A stretch of DNA of 12,244 nt from a virus (IMGVR_UViG_3300027312_000135), one strand, 5' to 3'. Counted from the first letter of the stretch, positions 3,525-11,959 are shown. Notes: generated by a model not told the origin, from the letters alone. A program made the numbers and translations.

Positions 3525-3591
3525 TGTGAATTGATCCAGTCTTTTCGCATCAGGCCTCGAAGCTGTTCGCGCAGCTCGGGGCCTTTTCTTT
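3525..3591 (+). ncRNA. oop: oop-like antisense RNA overlapping the 3' end of cII
   Basis: The promoter above is followed by an intrinsic terminator. The stem is 3553-3565 / 3572-3583 (12 bp with one bulge), the loop is ttcgcg, and the tail is TTTTCTTT at 3584-3591. Position and orientation match lambda oop. The 5' end is an estimate. Confidence 0.6.
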
Positions 3592-3849
3592 GGTAAGAAG
3601 CTGCTCAATGCGAAGCAGTCTTTGCGCCACTTCAGATTCCGGCGACACAACATCGAGGTAAGCCATAGCGAGGCTCATCATCTGGAAGAAGCTGTGTTTC
3701 TGCATTCCCGATCTGCGCTTCATTCGGCTTATGGTCGCTTCATCCATATCAAGCACTTTCGCCAGAGTTCCTTGTCCGCGTTCAGCCAGCTTGTTCAGTA
3801 ACTGACTTTCGATTTCTCGCGCTTTTTTGCGATAACTTGCAATTTCCAT
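3550..3849 (-). CDS. cII: Transcriptional activator cII
   Basis: REIESQLLNKLAERGQGTLAKVLDMDEATISRMKR aligns with lambda cII (LRIESALLNKIAMLGTEKTAEAVGVDKSQISRWKR). Its position after cro and nutR fits. Confidence 0.9.
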   Translation of the reverse strand: MEIASYRKKAREIESQLLNKLAERGQGTLAKVLDMDEATISRMKRRSGMQKHSFFQMMSLAMAYLDVVSPESEVAQRLLRIEQLLTKEKAPSCANSFEA

Positions 3850-3960: not shown

Positions 3961-4176
3961 CTAAGAGGCGGCTAACAGGTCTGCAAGATCAGGGCGAATC
4001 TCGAACGGTTTAACTCGACCCTGCGTGGCCTTGGATATTGCCAACACATATTTGGCATCTATGCCGCCTCCGTGTAGCCAACGCCAAACGGTCGGCTGTT
4101 TGACGCCGCAGAGATCAGCCAGCTTTTGCTGACTTCCTGCGATGTTCACAGCCCTTTGAATAGCTTTGTTAGTCAT
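3961..4176 (-). CDS. cro: Cro-like HTH repressor (Cro/YdaS-type)
   Basis: 71 aa from ATG 4176 with RBS AAGGAA: MTNKAIQRAVNIAGSQQKLADLCGVKQPTVWRWL... contains an HTH. It is divergent from cI. The ORF-track start at 4236 lies upstream of the PR candidate hexamers and would run through the operator region. Confidence 0.8.
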   Translation of the reverse strand: MTNKAIQRAVNIAGSQQKLADLCGVKQPTVWRWLHGGGIDAKYVLAISKATQGRVKPFEIRPDLADLLAAS

Positions 4177-4181
4177 AGCAA

Positions 4182-4276
4182 TTCCTTTACGTATTATCAC
4201 AGCAGGAATAATAGCAATGAGTATTGGTAAAGGCAATAGCTTTCCACATTTGACGGTTAATACGCCTAGCTATAAA
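4182..4276. promoter_or_regulatory. OR operator cluster with divergent PR and PRM candidates
   Basis: PR on the minus strand is TTGCCT (4236-4231), 17 nt, then TATTAT (4213-4208). PRM on the plus strand is TTGACG (4250-4255) with TATAAAT (4271-4277), placing the start a few nt before the cI ATG, so the mRNA would be nearly leaderless. Operator-like sites lie at 4182-4199, 4212-4229 (16/18 match to the best OL site) and 4255-4272. Confidence 0.6.
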
Positions 4277-4285
4277 TTGCGGGGT

Positions 4286-4909
4286 ATGAATAAAACTCTC
4301 GCAGAAAGATTGGCTAAGGCCATGCAAGAAAGGGATATGTCCCAGGGTGCTTTAGCTAAAGCATCGGGTGTAGCCCAACCAACTATCTGGCGCCTAGTCA
4401 AAGGTGAGGCCAAGGGTTCGACTCGTCTGGTTGATATTGCGCGCGCTCTGTCGGTGAGCGTTGAGTGGCTGGCTAACGGAACTGGGTCGATGGATGCTCA
4501 GGAAAAGATGACTTATCCTCAGCCACCAGCCAATGAGATGAAGCTCGGAGGGGTGTTTCCTGTTCCTGTCTTTGATCGCTCTAATGAACAAACACATGAC
4601 TATGTGTATGTCCCAAATTCAGTAGAGAGTGATAGCTGTAGAGCTTATATCTTAGAGCGAAATAGCGGGTGTTATGAAGCCCCTGCAGGAACTGTTGTCG
4701 TAGTAGACACAAAGGAAGAAGCTGGTAATGGTGATCTGGTTTACGCCAAAGTTAACGGGGCGTATTCCGTCTATAAATTTGTTGACGGCGGATCCACGGG
4801 TTATCTGTCAGTAGATGATGATCGCGTTCCTCTCGTACCTGCGACAACCGATTCATCCGTAATAGGCGTCGTCGTTTTCCTGCTGCGTGATCTGAAGCGC
4901 AAAAAGTAA
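4286..4909 (+). CDS. cI: cI-type prophage repressor: N-terminal HTH_XRE plus C-terminal S24/LexA-like domain
   Basis: MNKTLAERLAKAMQERDMSQGALAKASGVAQPTIWRLV.. is an XRE-type HTH. The C-terminal beta-rich domain (..GDLVYAKVNGAYSVYKF..) resembles an S24 peptidase fold. The ATG at 4286 was chosen because the ORF-track start at 4166 overlaps cro and OR. Confidence 0.85.
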   Translation: MNKTLAERLAKAMQERDMSQGALAKASGVAQPTIWRLVKGEAKGSTRLVDIARALSVSVEWLANGTGSMDAQEKMTYPQPPANEMKLGGVFPVPVFDRSNEQTHDYVYVPNSVESDSCRAYILERNSGCYEAPAGTVVVVDTKEEAGNGDLVYAKVNGAYSVYKFVDGGSTGYLSVDDDRVPLVPATTDSSVIGVVVFLLRDLKRKK

Positions 4910-6811: not shown

Positions 6812-7081
6812 ATGAAAAATCTCTCTGAGACCGATTTAGAGCGCATCGGCGATGAAGCCGACTCGATGATGGACCAGCACAAGATTAACCCGCTGATGAC
6901 CGCGCTGTGCGCGTTCCTGCCTAAGCACTTCGATTACCCCGCTGTCGAGCTGGTCGACGAAGACGACGAGCAGTACGAAGCCGCCGAAAACTTCCTGCGC
7001 GATGCGCTGGTGAAAGTCGCTAAGCGGGACATGGCGATCGCCATCTGGAAAAGCCGAAACAGCTTCGATGAGGTGGCGTGA
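6812..7081 (+). CDS. Hypothetical acidic protein (89 aa; possibly 103-116 aa from upstream starts)
   Basis: ATG at 6812 follows GAGGAG. In-frame alternatives are GTG 6770 (GTGA-coupled to the 37-aa ORF, RBS GGAGAG) and ATG 6731. The stop overlaps the recE-like ATG (TGATG). Confidence 0.65.
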   Translation: MKNLSETDLERIGDEADSMMDQHKINPLMTALCAFLPKHFDYPAVELVDEDDEQYEAAENFLRDALVKVAKRDMAIAIWKSRNSFDEVA

Positions 7082-7899
7082 TGCAGCCTGGCATCTATTA
7101 CGACATCAGCAACGAGTCGTACCACAGCGGCCCCGGCATCAGTAAATCGCAGCTGGACGACATCGCGATCAACCCGGCCATCTTTCAGTGGCGCAAAGAA
7201 GCGCCAGAGGACGAAGAGAAGAAATCGGCACTGGATATGGGCACGGCCCTGCACTGCCTGCTGCTGGAGCCTGAAGAGTTTGATCACCGCTTCATCGTGG
7301 CGCCCGAGTTTAACCGCCGCACCAATGAAGGAAAGGCGAACGAGAAAGCCTTTCTGCAGGACTGCGCCGGGCTGGGCATGACGGTGATGGACGCCGAGGA
7401 AGGTCGCAAGCTGAAGCTTATGCAGGCCAGCGCCCTCGCCCACCCGGCCGCACGCTGGTTACTGGAGGCAGAAGGCCATCAGGAGGCGTCAATCTACTGG
7501 AATGATGAGCAGACAGGCGAACTTTGCCGGATCAGGTCAGACAAGTTTCTTTCGGAACAGCCCGTCATCGTTGACGTGAAAAAAGTGGCTGATATGTCCC
7601 GCTTCGCCCGGCACGTCGAAGAGTTCCGCTATCACGTTCAGGACGCCTATTACCGCGAGGGCTTCAGTCAGCATTTCGGCGAATACCCGCTTTTCGTTTT
7701 TATCGCCGTCAGCGAGTCGATCGACTGCGGCCGGTATCCGGTGCGCACCTTCCAGCTGCAGGAGGACGATGTTTCCGTGGGCTACGACCTCTTTCGCCGC
7801 GACCTGAACACCTATCACGAATGCATGCTGACCGGTAACTGGGGCGGCATCGAAGAAATCACGCGCCCGGACTGGGCAAAAAGGAAGGATTACGCATGA
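7081..7899 (+). CDS. recE: RecE-like / PD-(D/E)XK exonuclease (exodeoxyribonuclease VIII C-terminal-domain type)
   Basis: Nuclease motifs are visible: ..RIRSDKF.., IVDVKKV (D/E-x-K) and HVQDAYY (QxxxY). It lies immediately upstream of, and overlaps, recT. Confidence 0.8.
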   Translation: MQPGIYYDISNESYHSGPGISKSQLDDIAINPAIFQWRKEAPEDEEKKSALDMGTALHCLLLEPEEFDHRFIVAPEFNRRTNEGKANEKAFLQDCAGLGMTVMDAEEGRKLKLMQASALAHPAARWLLEAEGHQEASIYWNDEQTGELCRIRSDKFLSEQPVIVDVKKVADMSRFARHVEEFRYHVQDAYYREGFSQHFGEYPLFVFIAVSESIDCGRYPVRTFQLQEDDVSVGYDLFRRDLNTYHECMLTGNWGGIEEITRPDWAKRKDYA

Positions 7900-8798
7900 G
7901 CAACGAAATTACGCACCCGCCGGTCAACGAGGCCGACACCAAAGCGGCAATTTTCAGCCCGAGCGCATTGCAGAAGCTGCAGGCGTTTGCCGAAGTGATG
8001 GCAATGGGAAAAGTCACAGTTCCCGCCCACCTGGCTGGTAAACCCGCCGATTGTCTCGCTGTCGCGCTTCAGGCTGCACAGTGGGGCATGAACCCCTACG
8101 CAGTGGCGCAGAAAACACATGCCGTTAACGGCACGCTGGGCTACGAAGCGCAACTGGTAAACGCCGTCATAACCAGCTCTACGGCCGTGCAGGGTCGCTT
8201 CAAATATGAGTACGGCGGCGACTGGGAGAAGTTCAAGCCCGGCGCAGCTAACGCGGCGAATGAACGCGGCCTGTTTGTCCGGGTCGGCGCCGTGCTGCGC
8301 GGCGAGACGGAAATCACCTGGGGCGAGCCGCTGTTTCTGGAGTTCGTAACCACCCGCAACTCTCCGCTCTGGAAAACAGCGCCGAAGCAGCAGCTGGCTT
8401 ATCTGGCCGTCAAATACTGGGCGCGCCTCTACTGCCCTGACGTCATCCTCGGCGTTTACACCCCAGATGAGTTTGAACCGGCGCAGCGCGCGGAACGTGA
8501 TGTTACCCCAGCACGCAGCCGTGCAGACCTGAACAACCTGATCAACAGCAAGCCCGAAACGCAGCAGCCCGAGCGCGAAATTAACCCGGCGACTAACACC
8601 AGTGCACCAGCGCGCACGCCGGACGAGCTCCTTGCCGATTTCACCACCGCTGCAGCTGAAGCGGAAAACGTTGCCGGTCTGGACCGCTGCTACAAATACG
8701 CGGCACGCATGCTGGCTAATGATGGTCAAGATCTTGTAAAGGCGACGAAGGTTTATCAGATACGCAAGAAAGAACTTAGCGATTCAGATTTAGGATAA
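7896..8798 (+). CDS. recT: RecT-family single-strand annealing protein
   Basis: The 300-aa ORF has an ATGA overlap with the exonuclease gene. The core (..QAAQWGMNPYAVAQKTHAVNGTLGYEAQL.. , ..NSPLWKT.PKQQLAYLAVKYWARLY..) is typical of RecT. Confidence 0.88.
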   Translation: MSNEITHPPVNEADTKAAIFSPSALQKLQAFAEVMAMGKVTVPAHLAGKPADCLAVALQAAQWGMNPYAVAQKTHAVNGTLGYEAQLVNAVITSSTAVQGRFKYEYGGDWEKFKPGAANAANERGLFVRVGAVLRGETEITWGEPLFLEFVTTRNSPLWKTAPKQQLAYLAVKYWARLYCPDVILGVYTPDEFEPAQRAERDVTPARSRADLNNLINSKPETQQPEREINPATNTSAPARTPDELLADFTTAAAEAENVAGLDRCYKYAARMLANDGQDLVKATKVYQIRKKELSDSDLG

Positions 8799-8830
8799 AC
8801 ATGTAGTACACTTATAGCTCTATAAAATTC

Positions 8831-8861
8831 AAAAAATATTTCCCCTCAGCCGAGGGGAAAT
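8831..8861 (-). terminator. Intrinsic terminator ending the minus-strand island operon; may act weakly for recT on the plus strand
   Basis: ATTTCCCCTC-agcc-GAGGGGAAAT forms a 10-bp stem (8838-8861). On the minus strand it is followed directly by ATTTTTT (8837-8831). Confidence 0.8.
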
Positions 8862-8863
8862 GA

Positions 8864-9004
8864 TTAAGGTTTTTTTGGCGGTGGGGCTGGTTGCGTAACT
8901 TGTTTAGCTGGTTTATAACCCTCGTTTACTGGCTGTGATTTCGGTTGATAACCATAGTCATATGGTTGATATCCATCTTCTTTGAACCTTTTTTCATTGG
9001 CCAT
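8864..9004 (-). CDS. Proline-rich micro-protein paralog 3 (46 aa; 50 aa if started at 9016)
   Basis: Hand-translated: MANEKRFKEDGYQPYDYGYQPKSQPVNEGYKPAKQVTQPAPPPKKP*. It shares its C-terminal motif with the two upstream micro-ORFs. The RBS is weak. Confidence 0.55.
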   Translation of the reverse strand: MANEKRFKEDGYQPYDYGYQPKSQPVNEGYKPAKQVTQPAPPPKKP

Positions 9005-9033
9005 TTTTACACTCATCTTCAATTACTTAAATA

Positions 9034-9177
9034 TTATGGTTTTTTAGGGGGAGGTACGGGCTGTGTTACTTGTTTTGAAGGTTTGTAACCCTTTTCGACA
9101 GGCTTCTCTTTTGGCTGATACCCACGATCGGTATTATCACCGTTAAATTTAGAATACTTCTGGTTAAATAATTTCAT
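9034..9177 (-). CDS. Proline-rich micro-protein paralog 2 (47 aa)
   Basis: Hand-translated: MKLFNQKYSKFNGDNTDRGYQPKEKPVEKGYKPSKQVTQPVPPPKKP*. A GAGGTAGGA RBS region precedes the ATG. Confidence 0.6.
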   Translation of the reverse strand: MKLFNQKYSKFNGDNTDRGYQPKEKPVEKGYKPSKQVTQPVPPPKKP

Positions 9178-9191
9178 ACCGTTTCCTACCT

Positions 9192-9335
9192 CTATGGCTT
9201 TTTTGGAGGAGGTGCAGGAGGGGTAACCTGTTTCGGAGGTATATAACCACCATTAACACCATTGCTACTCTGGTTTTTACTTTGAGCTCTAGGTTGATAA
9301 CCATCTTGAGCTATGCCTTTATTTTTTTGCATCAT
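9192..9335 (-). CDS. Proline-rich micro-protein paralog 1 (47 aa; 46 aa from the second ATG)
   Basis: Hand-translated: MMQKNKGIAQDGYQPRAQSKNQSSNGVNGGYIPPKQVTPPAPPPKKP*. RBS is GGAGA. It starts 20 nt after the stop of the 195-aa membrane protein. Confidence 0.6.
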   Translation of the reverse strand: MMQKNKGIAQDGYQPRAQSKNQSSNGVNGGYIPPKQVTPPAPPPKKP

Positions 9336-9355
9336 ACATTCTCCAATGGAAATAA

Positions 9356-9943
9356 CTACGTTTCATAAAATTCAATCTTTTCAATATCTTTAGAGAGAAT
9401 AAGCACGCCCTGAGTCTTATCTTTGACGCTATCAAAACCACCGTCGCTATTAATGTGCCAACTTTGCTCTAAATAGAGTTGCTCTGGTTCAGGAGCGCTG
9501 GAAGCAAAAGAGTCACTACCATAATACCCGCCTATAGTCTTTCCGTCTTTTAAAGTAACAACGACCCAAGCCGTTTTACGCAATCCAAAATAATAATCCC
9601 AAGATCTTCCTGTTGGGTGTGGTAATAAGTTCTTTATCCATGGCAAAACTCTGGCCTTAGAGAAAATAAGCGCCAATAGAATAGGGCTTATTATCAAAAC
9701 AATCATATAAAAACAAAAGTAAATGAACGGGTGAGAAAACTTAAAGCCCAGCCCTTCAAAATAATATATTGGAATAAACCAAATCGCGTGATTGATGCAA
9801 CTGTAAGATACAACTTCTACTATCGCTTTTGAAGTATCTATTTGTACTGTAGGATGAAAAACATTATATGCTTTCATGCTTAGAAAGCCAGGAACGACAA
9901 AAAGGATAAAAATAAATAACTTACTACTATTCCAGATATCCAT
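9356..9943 (-). CDS. Integral membrane protein (three predicted TM helices plus a C-terminal soluble domain), function unknown
   Basis: 195-aa ORF in AT-rich DNA. Hydrophobic segments are KLFIFILFVVPGFLSMKAY, AIVEVVSYSCINHAIWFIPIYYF and PFIYFCFYMIVLIISPILLALIF. These are followed by RSWDYYFGLRKTAWVVVTLKDGKTIGGYYG...LYLEQSW. The layout is reminiscent of small DUF-type membrane proteins of prophages (recollection, not verified). Confidence 0.8.
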   Translation of the reverse strand: MDIWNSSKLFIFILFVVPGFLSMKAYNVFHPTVQIDTSKAIVEVVSYSCINHAIWFIPIYYFEGLGFKFSHPFIYFCFYMIVLIISPILLALIFSKARVLPWIKNLLPHPTGRSWDYYFGLRKTAWVVVTLKDGKTIGGYYGSDSFASSAPEPEQLYLEQSWHINSDGGFDSVKDKTQGVLILSKDIEKIEFYET

Positions 9944-10120
9944 TAGAGTTTTCTTCGAGTGATTTTTCTTTAAAAGAGCAAAACTGCACCTTCATGTCAA
10001 TAATTTTTTAGATGATTTTAAAGTATTACTAGTTTTCTTGATGAACAACACATAGCAGAGAAATACATGATGATAAGGTATACGTGGGCATGCCCCAACG
10101 ATGTCAATTCCAAGGAGCTT

Positions 10121-10246
10121 ATGAACATGCCGGTAATAGTTACGAAGTGGAGATGCAGCAGCCGGAAGCGGCTAAAGTTTTACCGTGATGGGTCGATGCA
10201 GTTACCGGAGGGTTACGATCCGATTTATCAGAAAGAGGGGGATTGA
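10121..10246 (+). CDS. Small basic peptide (41 aa; 59 aa if started at ATG 10067, 39 aa from ATG 10127)
   Basis: AAGGAG at 10112-10117. The sequence is MNMPVIVTKWRCSSRKRLKFYRDGSMQLPEGYDPIYQKEGD*. The stop TGA shares its A with the ATG of the 220-aa gene (TGATG). Confidence 0.45.
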   Translation: MNMPVIVTKWRCSSRKRLKFYRDGSMQLPEGYDPIYQKEGD

Positions 10247-10905
10247 TGTTCGAGCTATTTGATAAGAGATATTCCCATAGGATATCAGAAGCTCTTAAAG
10301 AGAAAGTTCGCACTGACATAGATGGGCCAGGATTCATTGCTCGGGGGATTCTTGAGGCTATTCGCTTACTAGAAGGTGAAAACGTAGCGCAGTCCACAAG
10401 AGCGATGCGACATAAGGAGCGAGAACTAAAAGGGGAACTAGAAGGTTTTTTTCATATTCACGTTGCAGAAGACAATTTTAGTAGATTAATGAATAATTTT
10501 GGTGGGAAGCCCTCTAAACCAATAAAAAACCCCAGACCAGATGAATTGATTGCTTATGCCACAAATCAAGTCTTAAAAGCATATGTTAAAAAATTTAGCA
10601 TCCCTTATAGTAGTGATGACACTCAACATTTGAGGGATGCCATAATTAACAGCAGCCATGCGAAGAAGATTGGCGCTGATAATATTTTTGATTCAATTCA
10701 GAAGCAAATACCTATGATGATAGACAAGGTATTTTTTTCAAACAATAAAGTTAGTGGCGATTGGTTATTATATAAAAAACACAGCGATGGTAAAAACTAT
10801 TACCTTGATTTCACAGTACATGTAGAATCAGAAGATACGCAGCGCCAAATTGAACTTCGAGCGTCTTTGAATAAATCTTTCCAAGAACTTATCAAACAAC
10901 ATTAA
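10246..10905 (+). CDS. Hypothetical 219-aa protein of the AT-rich island
   Basis: ATG at 10246 follows GAGGGGG; the ORF-track start at 10243 is a TTG one codon upstream. AT-rich codon usage matches the island. A strong terminator follows. I recognise no family with confidence. Confidence 0.78.
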   Translation: MFELFDKRYSHRISEALKEKVRTDIDGPGFIARGILEAIRLLEGENVAQSTRAMRHKERELKGELEGFFHIHVAEDNFSRLMNNFGGKPSKPIKNPRPDELIAYATNQVLKAYVKKFSIPYSSDDTQHLRDAIINSSHAKKIGADNIFDSIQKQIPMMIDKVFFSNNKVSGDWLLYKKHSDGKNYYLDFTVHVESEDTQRQIELRASLNKSFQELIKQH

Positions 10906-10920
10906 TTCTTAATAACTTTG

Positions 10921-10942
10921 ACCTGCTCCGGCAGGTTTTTTT
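10921..10942 (+). terminator. Intrinsic terminator closing the island
   Basis: ACCTGC-tccg-GCAGGT stem followed by a T-run to 10942. Confidence 0.85.
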
Positions 10943-10959
10943 ACGCCTAAATTTCGGAA

Positions 10960-11178
10960 ATGACTATGAATTTTCCAGATCCAGCAGACGAAGCAGCAGA
11001 ACGCGAACAGCAGCTGATAGAGGTAGCGCTGGCGAACAGGCCGGTTCCGCTGATGACTTACACAGGTAAATGTCACTACTGCGAAGAGCCAATCGACAAG
11101 GGGCATTTCTGCAGCGATGAATGTCGAACCGATCATGAGCGTATTCAGCATGCTCTTCGCAACAAAAAGGTGGCATGA
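10960..11178 (+). CDS. DksA/TraR-like small zinc-finger protein
   Basis: The 72-aa ORF reads ..EREQQLIEVALANR...GKCHYCEEPIDKGHFCSDECRTDHE. This is a CxxC...FCSxxC arrangement like phage TraR-type proteins. The start could be ATG 10966. Confidence 0.6.
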   Translation: MTMNFPDPADEAAEREQQLIEVALANRPVPLMTYTGKCHYCEEPIDKGHFCSDECRTDHERIQHALRNKKVA

Positions 11179-11390
11179 CGCCGCAAACTGAAAACGCACT
11201 AAGGGCCGTAGCGCGTAAGTGCAGGAGCGAGATTCTTAAAGCCATTGATGGCACAGAACACGACCGCATCATAACCATCCTTCTCGATAAGCACGCCAAA
11301 ACCGTTCAATGCCTACCGCCAGGCACATTCCCGGCAAAACGCTGGCTGTCCTTCTATGTGCGGCAGGTAGATAAGGAAATTCGCCAGTGA
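11175..11390 (+). CDS. Hypothetical protein (71 aa)
   Basis: ATGA overlap with the upstream gene and GTGA overlap with the downstream methyltransferase. GC content resembles the backbone. Confidence 0.6.
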   Translation: MTPQTENALRAVARKCRSEILKAIDGTEHDRIITILLDKHAKTVQCLPPGTFPAKRWLSFYVRQVDKEIRQ

Positions 11391-11959
11391 ATATCGTTAA
11401 TGACTATGGCGACAGCACCACACCGCCCGAACACCGTGACAGCTGGCAGACGTCGCCGGAAATATTTGCTGCGCTGAACCGCAATTTCCGCTTTGTGGCT
11501 GATGTTGCGGCGAGCGAGCATAACCACCTGCTCCCGGTTTACTTCACCGAAAAGGACGACGCGCTGGCGCAGGACTGGGCCGGACAACTGCCACTGGGGA
11601 TCACCTGGTGCAATCCGACCTATAGCGACATTTCTCCCTGGGTGAAGAAAGCCGCGGAGGAATGCCGTAAAGGGATCGGCATCGTGATGCTTGTTCCCGC
11701 TGACACTTCGGTCGGCTGGTTCAGCCTGGCGCGGAACTCATGCACCGAGGTGCGCTTCATTATCGACGGTCGACTCTCGTTTATTCGCGCTGATACAGGC
11801 AAGCCGGTCAACGGCAACAATAAGGGATCGATGCTGTTGATCTGGAACCCGTTCACCTCAGATTTTGGCATAACCGGGCATGTCTCGCGTGACACGCTAA
11901 TGGCGATCGGACGGAAGCTATTGTCCGAACGGGAGCCTGCCGACGAGCGCGCCGCATGA
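11387..11959 (+). CDS. dam: Phage Dam-type DNA N6-adenine methyltransferase
   Basis: WQTSPEIFAALNRNFRFVADVAASEHN...YFT..DDAL..DW....WCNPTYSDISPWVKKA matches the phage N6A-MTase family layout. The catalytic tetrad reads NPTY rather than N/DPPY. The start is a GTG. Confidence 0.85.
   Translation: MNIVNDYGDSTTPPEHRDSWQTSPEIFAALNRNFRFVADVAASEHNHLLPVYFTEKDDALAQDWAGQLPLGITWCNPTYSDISPWVKKAAEECRKGIGIVMLVPADTSVGWFSLARNSCTEVRFIIDGRLSFIRADTGKPVNGNNKGSMLLIWNPFTSDFGITGHVSRDTLMAIGRKLLSEREPADERAA

What the first reader, a model, noticed from the sequence alone, without database searches (positions are those of the whole stretch)
10067..10905. Translationally coupled small basic peptide plus 220-aa protein: possible two-component toxin/antitoxin-like or defence module
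A short ORF has its TGA sharing one base with the ATG of the 220-aa gene (GATTGATG at 10241-10248), which is a hallmark of stoichiometric co-expression. It is 41 aa from ATG 10121 with AAGGAG upstream, or 59 aa from ATG 10067. The small ORF is locally more GC-rich than the rest of the island. The large protein contains a stretch, RELKGELEGFFHIHVAEDNFSRL, that weakly recalls the LKGxLxGxxxxRvgdyRl core of RelE/ParE-type toxins. It also has a C-terminal GDWLLYKKHSDGKNYYLDFTVH strand-turn-strand. This is motif-level resemblance only, and the protein is far longer than those toxins.
Basis: inference. Interest (0 to 1): 0.6.

Follow-up and report, generated by a model that had tools for sequence, protein, structure and literature searches.

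The report
Lone RelE-like gene behind decayed theta gene
The small upstream ORF is the wreck of a phage copy of the DNA-polymerase III theta gene, not an antitoxin, while the 219-aa gene encodes an undescribed toxin-like (RelE/YafQ-fold) protein split by a large helical insertion that always travels alone.

Summary
Its two-gene interpretation is not supported.

**Small ORF (10067-10246).** It is a decayed phage holE/hot (Pol III theta) gene. A related prophage carries an intact 84-aa theta with the same TGATG junction. Other relatives carry theta with stop codons or frameshifts, and at least five contexts have no theta at all.

**219-aa gene.**
- It is under strong purifying selection (dN/dS 0.04-0.25) and is AT-rich, 37% GC against about 53% in the backbone.
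- It matches no model in Pfam, NCBIfam, PADLOC or PHROGs.
- The fold is split: a 96-105-aa helical insertion (58-66 aa in distant relatives) sits in the β2-β3 hairpin, and a C-terminal helix follows.
- Two histidines (H72, H192) are conserved at positions that line up with YafQ catalytic residues.

**No partner gene.** None recurs in about 30 contexts: prophages, a plasmid, and chromosomes from many phyla.

**Best reading.** A solitary RelE-like endoribonuclease-fold accessory gene. Its role is unresolved: self-regulated defence toxin, RegB-like phage RNase, or a tamed non-toxic protein.

The parts
10067..10246 (+). Small ORF (59 aa): a decayed, probably chimeric remnant of a phage DNA polymerase III theta (holE/hot) gene. 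Theta-homologous DNA runs from about 10076 to 10243.
   Evidence: PHROG 1105 (theta) E 3.4e-5 and Pfam PF06440 E 0.009, 16 bits against a cutoff of 34.6. tblastn with the intact L012 theta gives E 1e-8 at 10103-10237. The DNA alignment to the intact and pseudogene copies shows loss of the 5' end, a 1-nt deletion and a 23-nt gap. The out-of-frame stretch reads EVEMQQPEAAKVLP* in another frame.
10112..10123 (+). These bases correspond to the internal theta codons K-E-R-M.
   Evidence: Alignment of the window AAGGAGCTTATGAACATG to L012 AAAGAGCGCATGAACATG; coordinates.
10235..10241 (+). Shine-Dalgarno sequence GAGGGGG of the 219-aa gene, 4 nt before the ATG.
   Evidence: Direct reading. Theta-less homologues also carry their own purine-rich SD before the ATG.
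10244..10248 (+). TGATG stop/start overlap, inherited from an ancestral theta-gene junction.
   Evidence: The same junction is found in L004, L019 and L012 (intact theta). A GTGA junction is found in L021 and L025.
10246..10905 (+). 219-aa gene encoding a solitary RelE/YafQ-type (BECR-fold) protein with an insertion in the β2-β3 hairpin.
10246..10473 (+). N-terminal part of the RelE-like core (aa 1-76): β1, α1 (15-25), α2 (30-42), then β2 carrying the invariant H70-x-H72.
   Evidence: Secondary structure; invariant S14, L42, E43, L65, H70 and H72.
10474..10755 (+). Inserted helical domain (aa 77-170; helices 77-84, 98-116, 126-134, 137-142, 144-163). It has no detectable relatives.
   Evidence: Insertion length between the HxH and G(D/E)W motifs is 96-105 aa in clades A and B and 58-66 aa in clade C. 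Searches of the insert alone found only chance hits.
10756..10830 (+). C-terminal part of the core (aa 171-195): G-D172-W173, β3 (173-178) and β4 (184-190), ending at H192.
   Evidence: W173 and Y186 are invariant and H192 is nearly invariant.
10837..10896 (+). C-terminal amphipathic helix (aa 198-217).
   Evidence: A tail of 41-51 aa from the G(D/E)W motif to the C-terminus is present in all members.
10920..10944 (+). Intrinsic-terminator-like hairpin plus T-run, 15 nt after the stop codon.

Best explanation
The locus is one working gene plus a scar, not a two-gene module.

**The scar.** ORF 10067-10246 is what remains of a phage-borne DNA polymerase III theta (holE/hot-like) gene. In the ancestor this gene sat immediately upstream of the 219-aa gene with an overlapping stop/start. 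In this prophage theta has lost its 5' third, carries a frameshift and lacks 8 codons. Only about 10 plus 26 residues are still read in the theta frame. Its SD-like AAGGAG, its ATG and its higher GC content are leftovers of theta coding sequence.

**The working gene.** The 219-aa gene is AT-rich, horizontally mobile and solitary. It encodes a RelE/YafQ-type (BECR) fold. The β2-β3 hairpin, where YafQ's catalytic His63 and Asp67 lie, is split by a helical domain of about 95 aa. A C-terminal helix follows the fold.

**Inferred mechanism.**
- The conserved H72 and H192, with D/E172, W173, R12 and S14, form an RNase-type acid-base site, so the protein cleaves RNA.
- No antitoxin gene accompanies it anywhere. 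Its activity must therefore be controlled within the polypeptide (by the insertion and/or C-terminal helix) or by expression.
- In this prophage it most likely acts as an accessory translation-shut-off function, either in exclusion or abortive infection, or during early lytic growth.

**Shown versus inferred.** Shown: theta ancestry and decay, fold, insertion, purifying selection and solitary status. Inferred: RNase activity, self-regulation and biological role.
For: **Theta ancestry and decay**
- Theta hits for the small ORF.
- L012 (large gene 76% identical) has an intact 84-aa theta, PF06440 at 110 bits, with the same TGATG junction.
- L004 has a stop plus a frameshift, L019 has one stop, and L025 has a resident theta with an in-frame TAG plus a second 3' remnant abutting the gene.
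- Lesions in the window copy are shown.
- The distant L021 (37% identical) has an intact theta with a GTGA overlap.

**Loci without theta**
- L008/L009/L020, L010/L011, L013, L016/L017 and L028/L029.

**Fold**
- AF2 pLDDT 90.1.
- The best Foldseek TM-score is also to HigB.

**Sequence-level support**
- Constructs with the insert removed hit only YafQ_toxin in Pfam (E 4e-4).
- In NCBIfam the same construct hits YafQ and RelE_StbE (E 0.005).
- 10 of its 12 weak PDB hits are HigB, YafQ or HP0892.
- hhalign places H72 on YafQ H63 and D172-W173 on D67-W68.
- JGI names relative P0032 'YafQ'.

**Selection and composition**
- dN/dS 0.04-0.25.
- Gene GC 0.35-0.43 against 0.48-0.53 for the loci of clades A and B.

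**Solitary status**
- No neighbouring ORF family recurs in the 20 genome loci.
- Some loci have no same-strand ORF within 150 nt on either side.
- 22 adjacent small ORFs hit no antitoxin family.
- The window island has no RNA family match or repeat array.
Against: - Native sequences match no RelE, YafQ or ParE profile. The spliced-construct hits are below curated cut-offs, and I chose the splice point with YafQ in mind.
- Profile-profile support is weak (hhalign E 0.04).
- The fold assignment rests on a predicted structure, not a solved one. I could not inspect coordinates, so whether the insertion covers the active site is unknown.
- A bulky domain in the β2-β3 hairpin should hinder A-site entry, so ribosome-dependent cleavage as in RelE is doubtful.
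- Theta linkage recurs in two clades with tight overlaps. This could reflect function rather than only shared ancestry.
- A relative sits in the same chromosomal slot in Moraxella osloensis and in a diverged relative's contig. This argues the protein need not be toxic.
Confidence: 0.6

Rival explanations
1. One reading: the small basic peptide and the 219-aa protein form a translationally coupled toxin-antitoxin (or two-component defence) pair.
For: The TGATG overlap is real and recurs in L004, L019 and L012. The large protein has a toxin fold.
Against: The peptide is a theta remnant, and its basic stretch is out-of-frame theta sequence. The upstream ORF differs in every locus: 84-aa intact theta, 38-40-aa tail, 59 aa, or none. 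No partner recurs in about 30 contexts.
Confidence: 0.04
2. Theta and the 219-aa protein are functional partners, for example in a replisome- or proofreading-linked activity. The window copy would then be a half-dead module.
For: Tight stop/start overlap with an intact theta in two clades whose large proteins are only about 37% identical (L012 and L021). A theta 3' remnant also abuts the gene in L025.
Against: Theta decays independently in at least four lineages (window, L004, L019, L025) while the large gene stays under purifying selection. Most family members, including the plasmid and chromosomal ones, have no theta. Theta genes in known phages such as HK639, P1 and RothD have other neighbours. 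The pattern fits theta as a conserved recombination joint next to an accessory-gene slot.
Confidence: 0.08
3. The protein is a ParE-like poison of DNA gyrase rather than an RNase.
Against: The strongest sequence signals point to YafQ, RelE and HigB. Histidines are conserved at positions corresponding to YafQ H63 and H87; to my knowledge ParE-type toxins do not conserve such residues.
Confidence: 0.1
4. The protein is a domesticated, non-toxic RelE-fold protein, such as a regulatory or ribosome- or RNA-binding factor, carried as ordinary cargo.
For: The gene is solitary everywhere. It occupies the same slot between a polyprenyl synthase and an RDD gene in Moraxella osloensis and in the contig of a diverged relative.
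Against: The histidine pair and acidic residue are conserved across very distant members. Members in Enterobacterales sit on mobile elements, are AT-rich and lie in accessory slots. One distant member lies beside a restriction-modification system and an Abi_C-like gene.
Confidence: 0.2

Closest known systems
YafQ, HigB, YoeB and RelE type II toxins (RelE/ParE or BECR-fold superfamily; e.g. PDB 4Q2U, 6AF3, 2A6Q)
   Different: About twice the size. A helical domain of 58-105 aa is inserted in the β2-β3 hairpin, and a C-terminal helix is added. No antitoxin gene is adjacent. The protein scores below threshold for every curated profile. Ribosomal A-site entry as seen for RelE looks sterically doubtful (inference).
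Fused single-gene toxin-antitoxins (CapRel SJ46; the RelE/ParE-family fusions listed by Gerdes 2025, PMC11980606)
   Same: A single polypeptide with a toxin fold plus extra helical parts. Carried by prophages and other mobile DNA, with no separate antitoxin.
   Different: Known fusions are end-to-end and carry recognisable antitoxin domains (HigA, YefM, ParD, HTH). Here the extra domain is inserted inside the toxin fold and resembles no known antitoxin. Self-inhibition is not shown.
Phage T4 RegB endoribonuclease
   Same: A phage-encoded protein in an early transcription unit with a RelE/YoeB-like fold, a two-histidine catalytic site and no known antitoxin (PMC3014915).
Phage P1 Hot and E. coli HolE (Pol III theta, PF06440)
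   Same: The small ORF derives from this family, and intact orthologues sit at the same position in L012 and L021. The L021 theta is 77% identical to P1 Hot.
   Different: The window copy is a pseudogene remnant: 16 bits against a cutoff of 34.6, a frameshift, and 5' and internal deletions.

Membership tests
RelE/ParE (BECR-fold) toxin superfamily | Compact fold: two N-terminal helices packed on a 3-5-stranded antiparallel sheet | tested here: met
RelE/ParE (BECR-fold) toxin superfamily | Match to a curated family profile (YafQ_toxin, RelE_StbE, HigB, ParE and others) at its threshold | tested here: not met
   The native protein and 45 relatives give no hit. With the insert removed: YafQ_toxin 21 bits against a cutoff of 30, and RelE_StbE 17 bits against 27.9.
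RelE/ParE (BECR-fold) toxin superfamily | Single domain of about 85-120 aa | tested here: not met
   219 aa, with a 96-105-aa (or 58-66-aa) insertion present in every full-length member.
YafQ-type mRNA interferases | Catalytic residues H50, H63, D67, H87 and F91 (from my own knowledge of E. coli YafQ) | tested here: inconclusive
   H72, D172 and H192 align with H63, D67 and H87 by spacing and by hhalign (E 0.04). H72 is invariant and H192 nearly so. Equivalents of H50 and F91 are unclear. No structural superposition could be inspected.
Type II toxin-antitoxin module | A conserved adjacent antitoxin gene co-transcribed with the toxin | tested here: not met
   The upstream ORF is a theta remnant. 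No recurring neighbour was found. Some loci have no flanking ORF. No antitoxin Pfam family appears among 22 adjacent ORFs.
Type II toxin-antitoxin module | Toxicity neutralised by the partner | not testable with these tools
   Needs expression experiments.
Type I/III toxin-antitoxin (RNA antitoxin) | An antisense RNA or tandem-repeat RNA next to the toxin gene | tested here: not met
   No Rfam match with E below 0.1 and no repeat array in 8700-11100. An unannotated antisense RNA cannot be excluded.
Fused (single-gene) toxin-antitoxin | A recognisable antitoxin domain in the same polypeptide | tested here: not met
   The insert alone hits only designed helical proteins and chance Pfam matches.
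DNA polymerase III theta (PF06440), applied to the small ORF | Profile match at threshold and an intact ORF of about 76-84 aa | tested here: not met
   16.2 bits against 34.6. The copy has a frameshift and deletions. The positional orthologue in L012 scores 110 bits. The ORF is therefore a pseudogene derived from the family, not a member.
Known anti-phage defence systems (PADLOC-DB 2.0) | Match to any defence-protein model | tested here: not met
   No hits for either ORF or for the DUF6338 neighbour.

The most novel reading that the evidence does not exclude
The family is a new kind of self-contained immune toxin. It would be a RelE-like endoribonuclease whose catalytic hairpin is interrupted by a helical sensor or lid domain, kept silent within the molecule and switched on by an infection cue. 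One gene would then do the work of a toxin-antitoxin pair, and prophages and plasmids would carry it as a portable abortive-infection or exclusion function.
Probability: 0.22. Interest if true: 0.75.

Novelty: new variant of a known kind. Interest (0 to 1): 0.5.

Why it matters
RelE/ParE toxins are among the best-studied bacterial toxins. Surveys of them rely on Pfam profiles and on finding an adjacent antitoxin.

This family escapes both filters. It is invisible to every curated profile, it has a large domain inserted at the catalytic hairpin, and it never has a partner gene. Yet it is conserved under purifying selection and is scattered across prophages, a plasmid and chromosomes of many phyla.

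If it is an active RNase, it raises a direct question: how is a toxin fold kept harmless without an antitoxin? It would also add a single-gene candidate to the accessory and defence repertoire of temperate phages.

The locus also shows how a decaying backbone gene (theta) can look like a translationally coupled small partner.

Tried and rejected
**Searches that found nothing**
- Near-identity DNA search of the island in E. coli genomes: no match.
- tblastn of the 219-aa protein against phage and plasmid records: no match.
- PADLOC, PHROGs, NCBIfam and Pfam on the native protein: nothing meaningful.
- PDB sequence search with the family profile and with the spliced-core profile: nothing.
- Foldseek against PDB and BFVD: no significant hit. 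AFDB50 was not available.
- Genome scan with the clade-A alignment: no relative among the species representatives.
- Spliced-core profile search for relatives lacking the insertion: every full-length hit has it.

**Attempts that needed repeating**
- First AF2 run with 6 sequences: pLDDT 56, unusable. Repeated with 20 sequences.
- The broad alignment was too diverse for locus finding.

**Ideas tested and dropped**
- The divergently transcribed neighbour (DUF6338) as a conserved partner: rejected. The divergent genes in L016 and L012 are unrelated to it.
- P1 Lxr as a counterpart downstream of hot: rejected. It is on the opposite strand and shows no similarity.
- The insertion as a known antitoxin or HTH domain: no support.
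- An RNA antitoxin: no support.

Full report
**Setting**

The window is the immunity and early region of a lambdoid prophage of an Enterobacterales host.
- On the minus strand lie the replication genes P (1063-1773) and O (1752-2675), a ParB-HTH gene, cII (3550-3849) and a cro-like gene (3961-4236).
- On the plus strand lie a cI-type repressor (4166-4909) and the early-left operon. The operon includes a PDDEXK exonuclease (7078-7899) and RecT (7896-8798).
- An AT-rich island follows (about 8800-10950), then a small zinc-finger gene, a Dam methylase (11387-11959) and an Xis-like gene.
- An identical copy on a longer contig continues into an integrase and host genes.
- The island is 37.5% GC against 53-54% on both sides.

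**The observation**

The large gene starts at the ATG at 10246. It also has its own Shine-Dalgarno sequence (GAGGGGG, 10235-10241).

**What the small ORF is**

It gives weak but specific hits to DNA polymerase III theta: PHROG 1105 at E 3.4e-5 and Pfam PF06440 at E 0.009.

The 219-aa protein has only eight close relatives among 5.8 billion clusters. Fetching their loci settled the question.
- **L012** (large protein 76% identical): the upstream gene is an intact 84-aa theta scoring 110 bits to PF06440. It ends in the same TGATG junction.
- **L004 and its copies:** theta carries an in-frame TAA and a frameshift, leaving only a 38-aa tail ORF. L019 has the TAA alone.
- **The window:** the DNA alignment shows loss of the theta 5' end, a 1-nt deletion and a 23-nt gap. 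As a result, only KELMNMPVIV and the last 26 residues are read in the theta frame. The basic stretch TKWRCSSRK is out-of-frame theta sequence. The correct frame there reads EVEMQQPEAAKVLP and then stops.
- The AAGGAG-ATG pair corresponds to the theta codons K-E-R-M.
- The higher GC of the ORF fits backbone-derived DNA.

The small ORF is therefore a pseudogene scar.

**Is theta nevertheless a partner?**

The linkage is old.
- A relative only 37% identical (L021) has an intact 82-aa theta overlapping the gene by GTGA.
- In L025 the resident theta has an in-frame TAG and is followed by an unrelated 81-aa gene with a terminator. A second theta 3' fragment of about 33 codons then abuts the gene directly.

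So the last part of theta travels with the gene. I read it as the homology joint used when phages exchange the accessory slot behind theta.

Against a functional pairing:
- Theta decays independently in at least four lineages, while the large gene shows dN/dS of 0.04-0.25.
- Five other contexts have no theta at all. These are the nin region of a Serratia prophage (L008), L010, L013, a prophage with P0009 (L016) and a plasmid with ParAB and Tn3 (L028).
- In two of those loci a shared promoter-like TTTACC-16-TATATT block precedes the gene.
- Theta genes of HK639, P1 and a Klebsiella phage have unrelated neighbours.

**What the large protein is**

No curated library recognises it.
- An exhaustive profile search of 1.84 billion representatives found 15 relatives.
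- With 20 sequences, AlphaFold gave a confident model: pLDDT 90.1 and pTM 0.80. A 6-sequence run had failed.
- Foldseek found nothing significant. Its only match with a sizeable TM-score was again a HigB.

The fold is interrupted.
- β2 ends at H70-I-H72.
- Helices spanning residues 77-163 follow.
- The sheet resumes at G-D172-W173 (β3) and continues through β4 to H192.
- A helix at 198-217 closes the protein.
- Every full-length relative has this insertion: 96-105 aa in the two Enterobacterales clades and 58-66 aa in distant ones.

**Sequence-level checks**

- L61-KGELEGFFHIHVAED has the same spacing as E. coli YafQ LQGSWKGYRDAHVEPD. YafQ then continues WILIYK...TGTH, which parallels WLLYKK...FTVH. 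I confirmed the YafQ sequence against PDB 4ML2.
- Constructs with the insertion removed hit YafQ_toxin as the only Pfam family or the strongest one (E 4e-4, 21 bits, below the cutoff of 30). In NCBIfam they hit YafQ and RelE_StbE.
- 10 of their 12 weak PDB hits are HigB, YafQ or HP0892.
- hhalign reproduces the H72/H63 and D172-W173/D67-W68 register, but only at E 0.04.
- These hits are suggestive only, because I chose the splice point.
- Across all clades the invariant or near-invariant residues are R12, S14, L42-E43, L65, H72, G171, W173, Y186, L187 and H192.
- One relative is labelled YafQ by JGI.

I infer an RNase-type histidine pair. ParE-type action is less likely but not excluded.

**No partner anywhere**

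- A profile of the spliced core found 37 clusters, and all full-length ones carry the insertion.
- A genome scan found 20 species representatives. They include Moraxella, Pseudoalteromonas, cyanobacteria, Nitrospirales, Bradyrhizobium, Cupriavidus, Halomonas, Acidobacteriota and others.
- Within 2 kb on either side, the only ORF family that recurs is the gene itself.
- Several loci have no same-strand ORF within 150 nt on either side.
- 22 adjacent small ORFs hit no antitoxin family.
- The window island has no Rfam match or repeat array.
- In Moraxella osloensis, and in the contig of a diverged relative (P0024), the gene occupies the same slot between a polyprenyl synthase and an RDD gene.
- One truncated distant member lies beside an MvaI/BcnI restriction-modification system, Vsr and an Abi_C-like gene.

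**Mechanism**

Shown: a solitary, selected, mobile gene with a RelE-like fold split at the catalytic hairpin.

Inferred:
- The protein cleaves RNA using H72 and H192.
- Because the insertion sits where RelE-type toxins meet the ribosomal A site and the mRNA, it either gates the active site or redirects the enzyme to another RNA.
- With no antitoxin gene, control must be internal or at the level of expression.

The biological role is open. The gene lies in the early-left operon with a terminator after it. Relatives have their own promoter-like elements. This fits either an exclusion or abortive-infection function, or an early phage RNase like T4 RegB. RegB has a RelE/YoeB-like fold, two catalytic histidines and no known antitoxin (PMC3014915).

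**Comparison with the literature**

A 2025 survey of mono- and multidomain RelE/ParE toxins lists end-to-end toxin-antitoxin fusions. It set aside multidomain proteins for which no antitoxin could be identified, and it does not use the words 'insertion' or 'inserted' (PMC11980606).

This family fails the sequence-profile, size and partner criteria of the canonical families but shares their fold. I therefore call it a new variant of a known kind.

**Verdict**

- The two-component interpretation is rejected.
- The toxin-fold hunch is upheld.
- Interest is moderate. The family is an undescribed, partner-less, insertion-bearing RelE-like family, but its activity and role are untested.

Noticed in passing
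window 8838-9943 (- strand): A second AT-rich cassette runs against the early-left operon. It holds a 195-aa membrane protein of family DUF6338 (9356-9943; Pfam E 1e-34), overlapping candidate 46-47-aa ORFs downstream (9034-9335), and a terminator-like hairpin at 8861-8838. It has no PADLOC or PHROG match and looks like a separate accessory gene of unknown function.
   Followed up: partly
L025 4393-5001: One prophage holds two theta-derived pieces. The resident theta has an in-frame TAG, followed by an unrelated 81-aa gene with a terminator. A theta 3' fragment of about 33 codons then joins directly to the RelE-like gene. This suggests the 3' end of theta serves as the recombination joint for swapping accessory genes.
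   Followed up: partly
L030-L038 (Moraxella osloensis) and L015: Distant family members (193 aa) sit in the same chromosomal slot: acyl-CoA dehydrogenase (absent from the short L015 contig), polyprenyl synthase, the gene, then an RDD gene on the opposite strand. The gene in L015 is 27% GC against 45% for the rest of that locus.
   Followed up: partly
L014 525-6831: A distant relative (P0025, 169 aa) ends before the final conserved histidine. It lies next to an MvaI/BcnI-type restriction enzyme, a cytosine methylase, Vsr and a weak Abi_C-like ORF, which looks like a defence island.
   Followed up: no
L008 7917-7944 and L013 about 37-70: In loci without theta, a conserved block CCTGTTTACCGA...TGTAGT(A)TAT matches a sigma-70 pattern (TTTACC-16-TATATT) about 55 nt before the start codon. 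The surrounding upstream DNA is otherwise diverged.
   Followed up: partly
window 10767-10794 (- strand): The best promoter-like match in the island (TTTACC-16-TATAAT, 10 of 12) lies antisense inside the 219-aa gene, over the WLLYKK...DGKN codons. It is probably a by-product of AT-rich codons, and I did not check its conservation.
   Followed up: no
window 3961-4236 (- strand): The cro-position gene hits Pfam 'YdaS_toxin' (E 3e-18). The same pairing of a Cro-like HTH with this family name appears in related prophages (L008, L016), so the name probably marks a Cro-type repressor rather than a toxin.
   Followed up: no
window 10960-11178 (+ strand): A 72-aa zinc-finger protein with a weak TraR-family hit (E 0.004) follows the terminator. 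Similar 68-72-aa ORFs follow the gene in L012 and L010 but not elsewhere, so it belongs to the phage backbone and is not a partner.
   Followed up: partly
P0015, P0017, P0046, P0050, P0051: Several database proteins of 94-121 aa consist only of the end of the insertion plus the C-terminal β3-β4 and helix part. They may be contig fragments or split genes; I did not resolve which.
   Followed up: no
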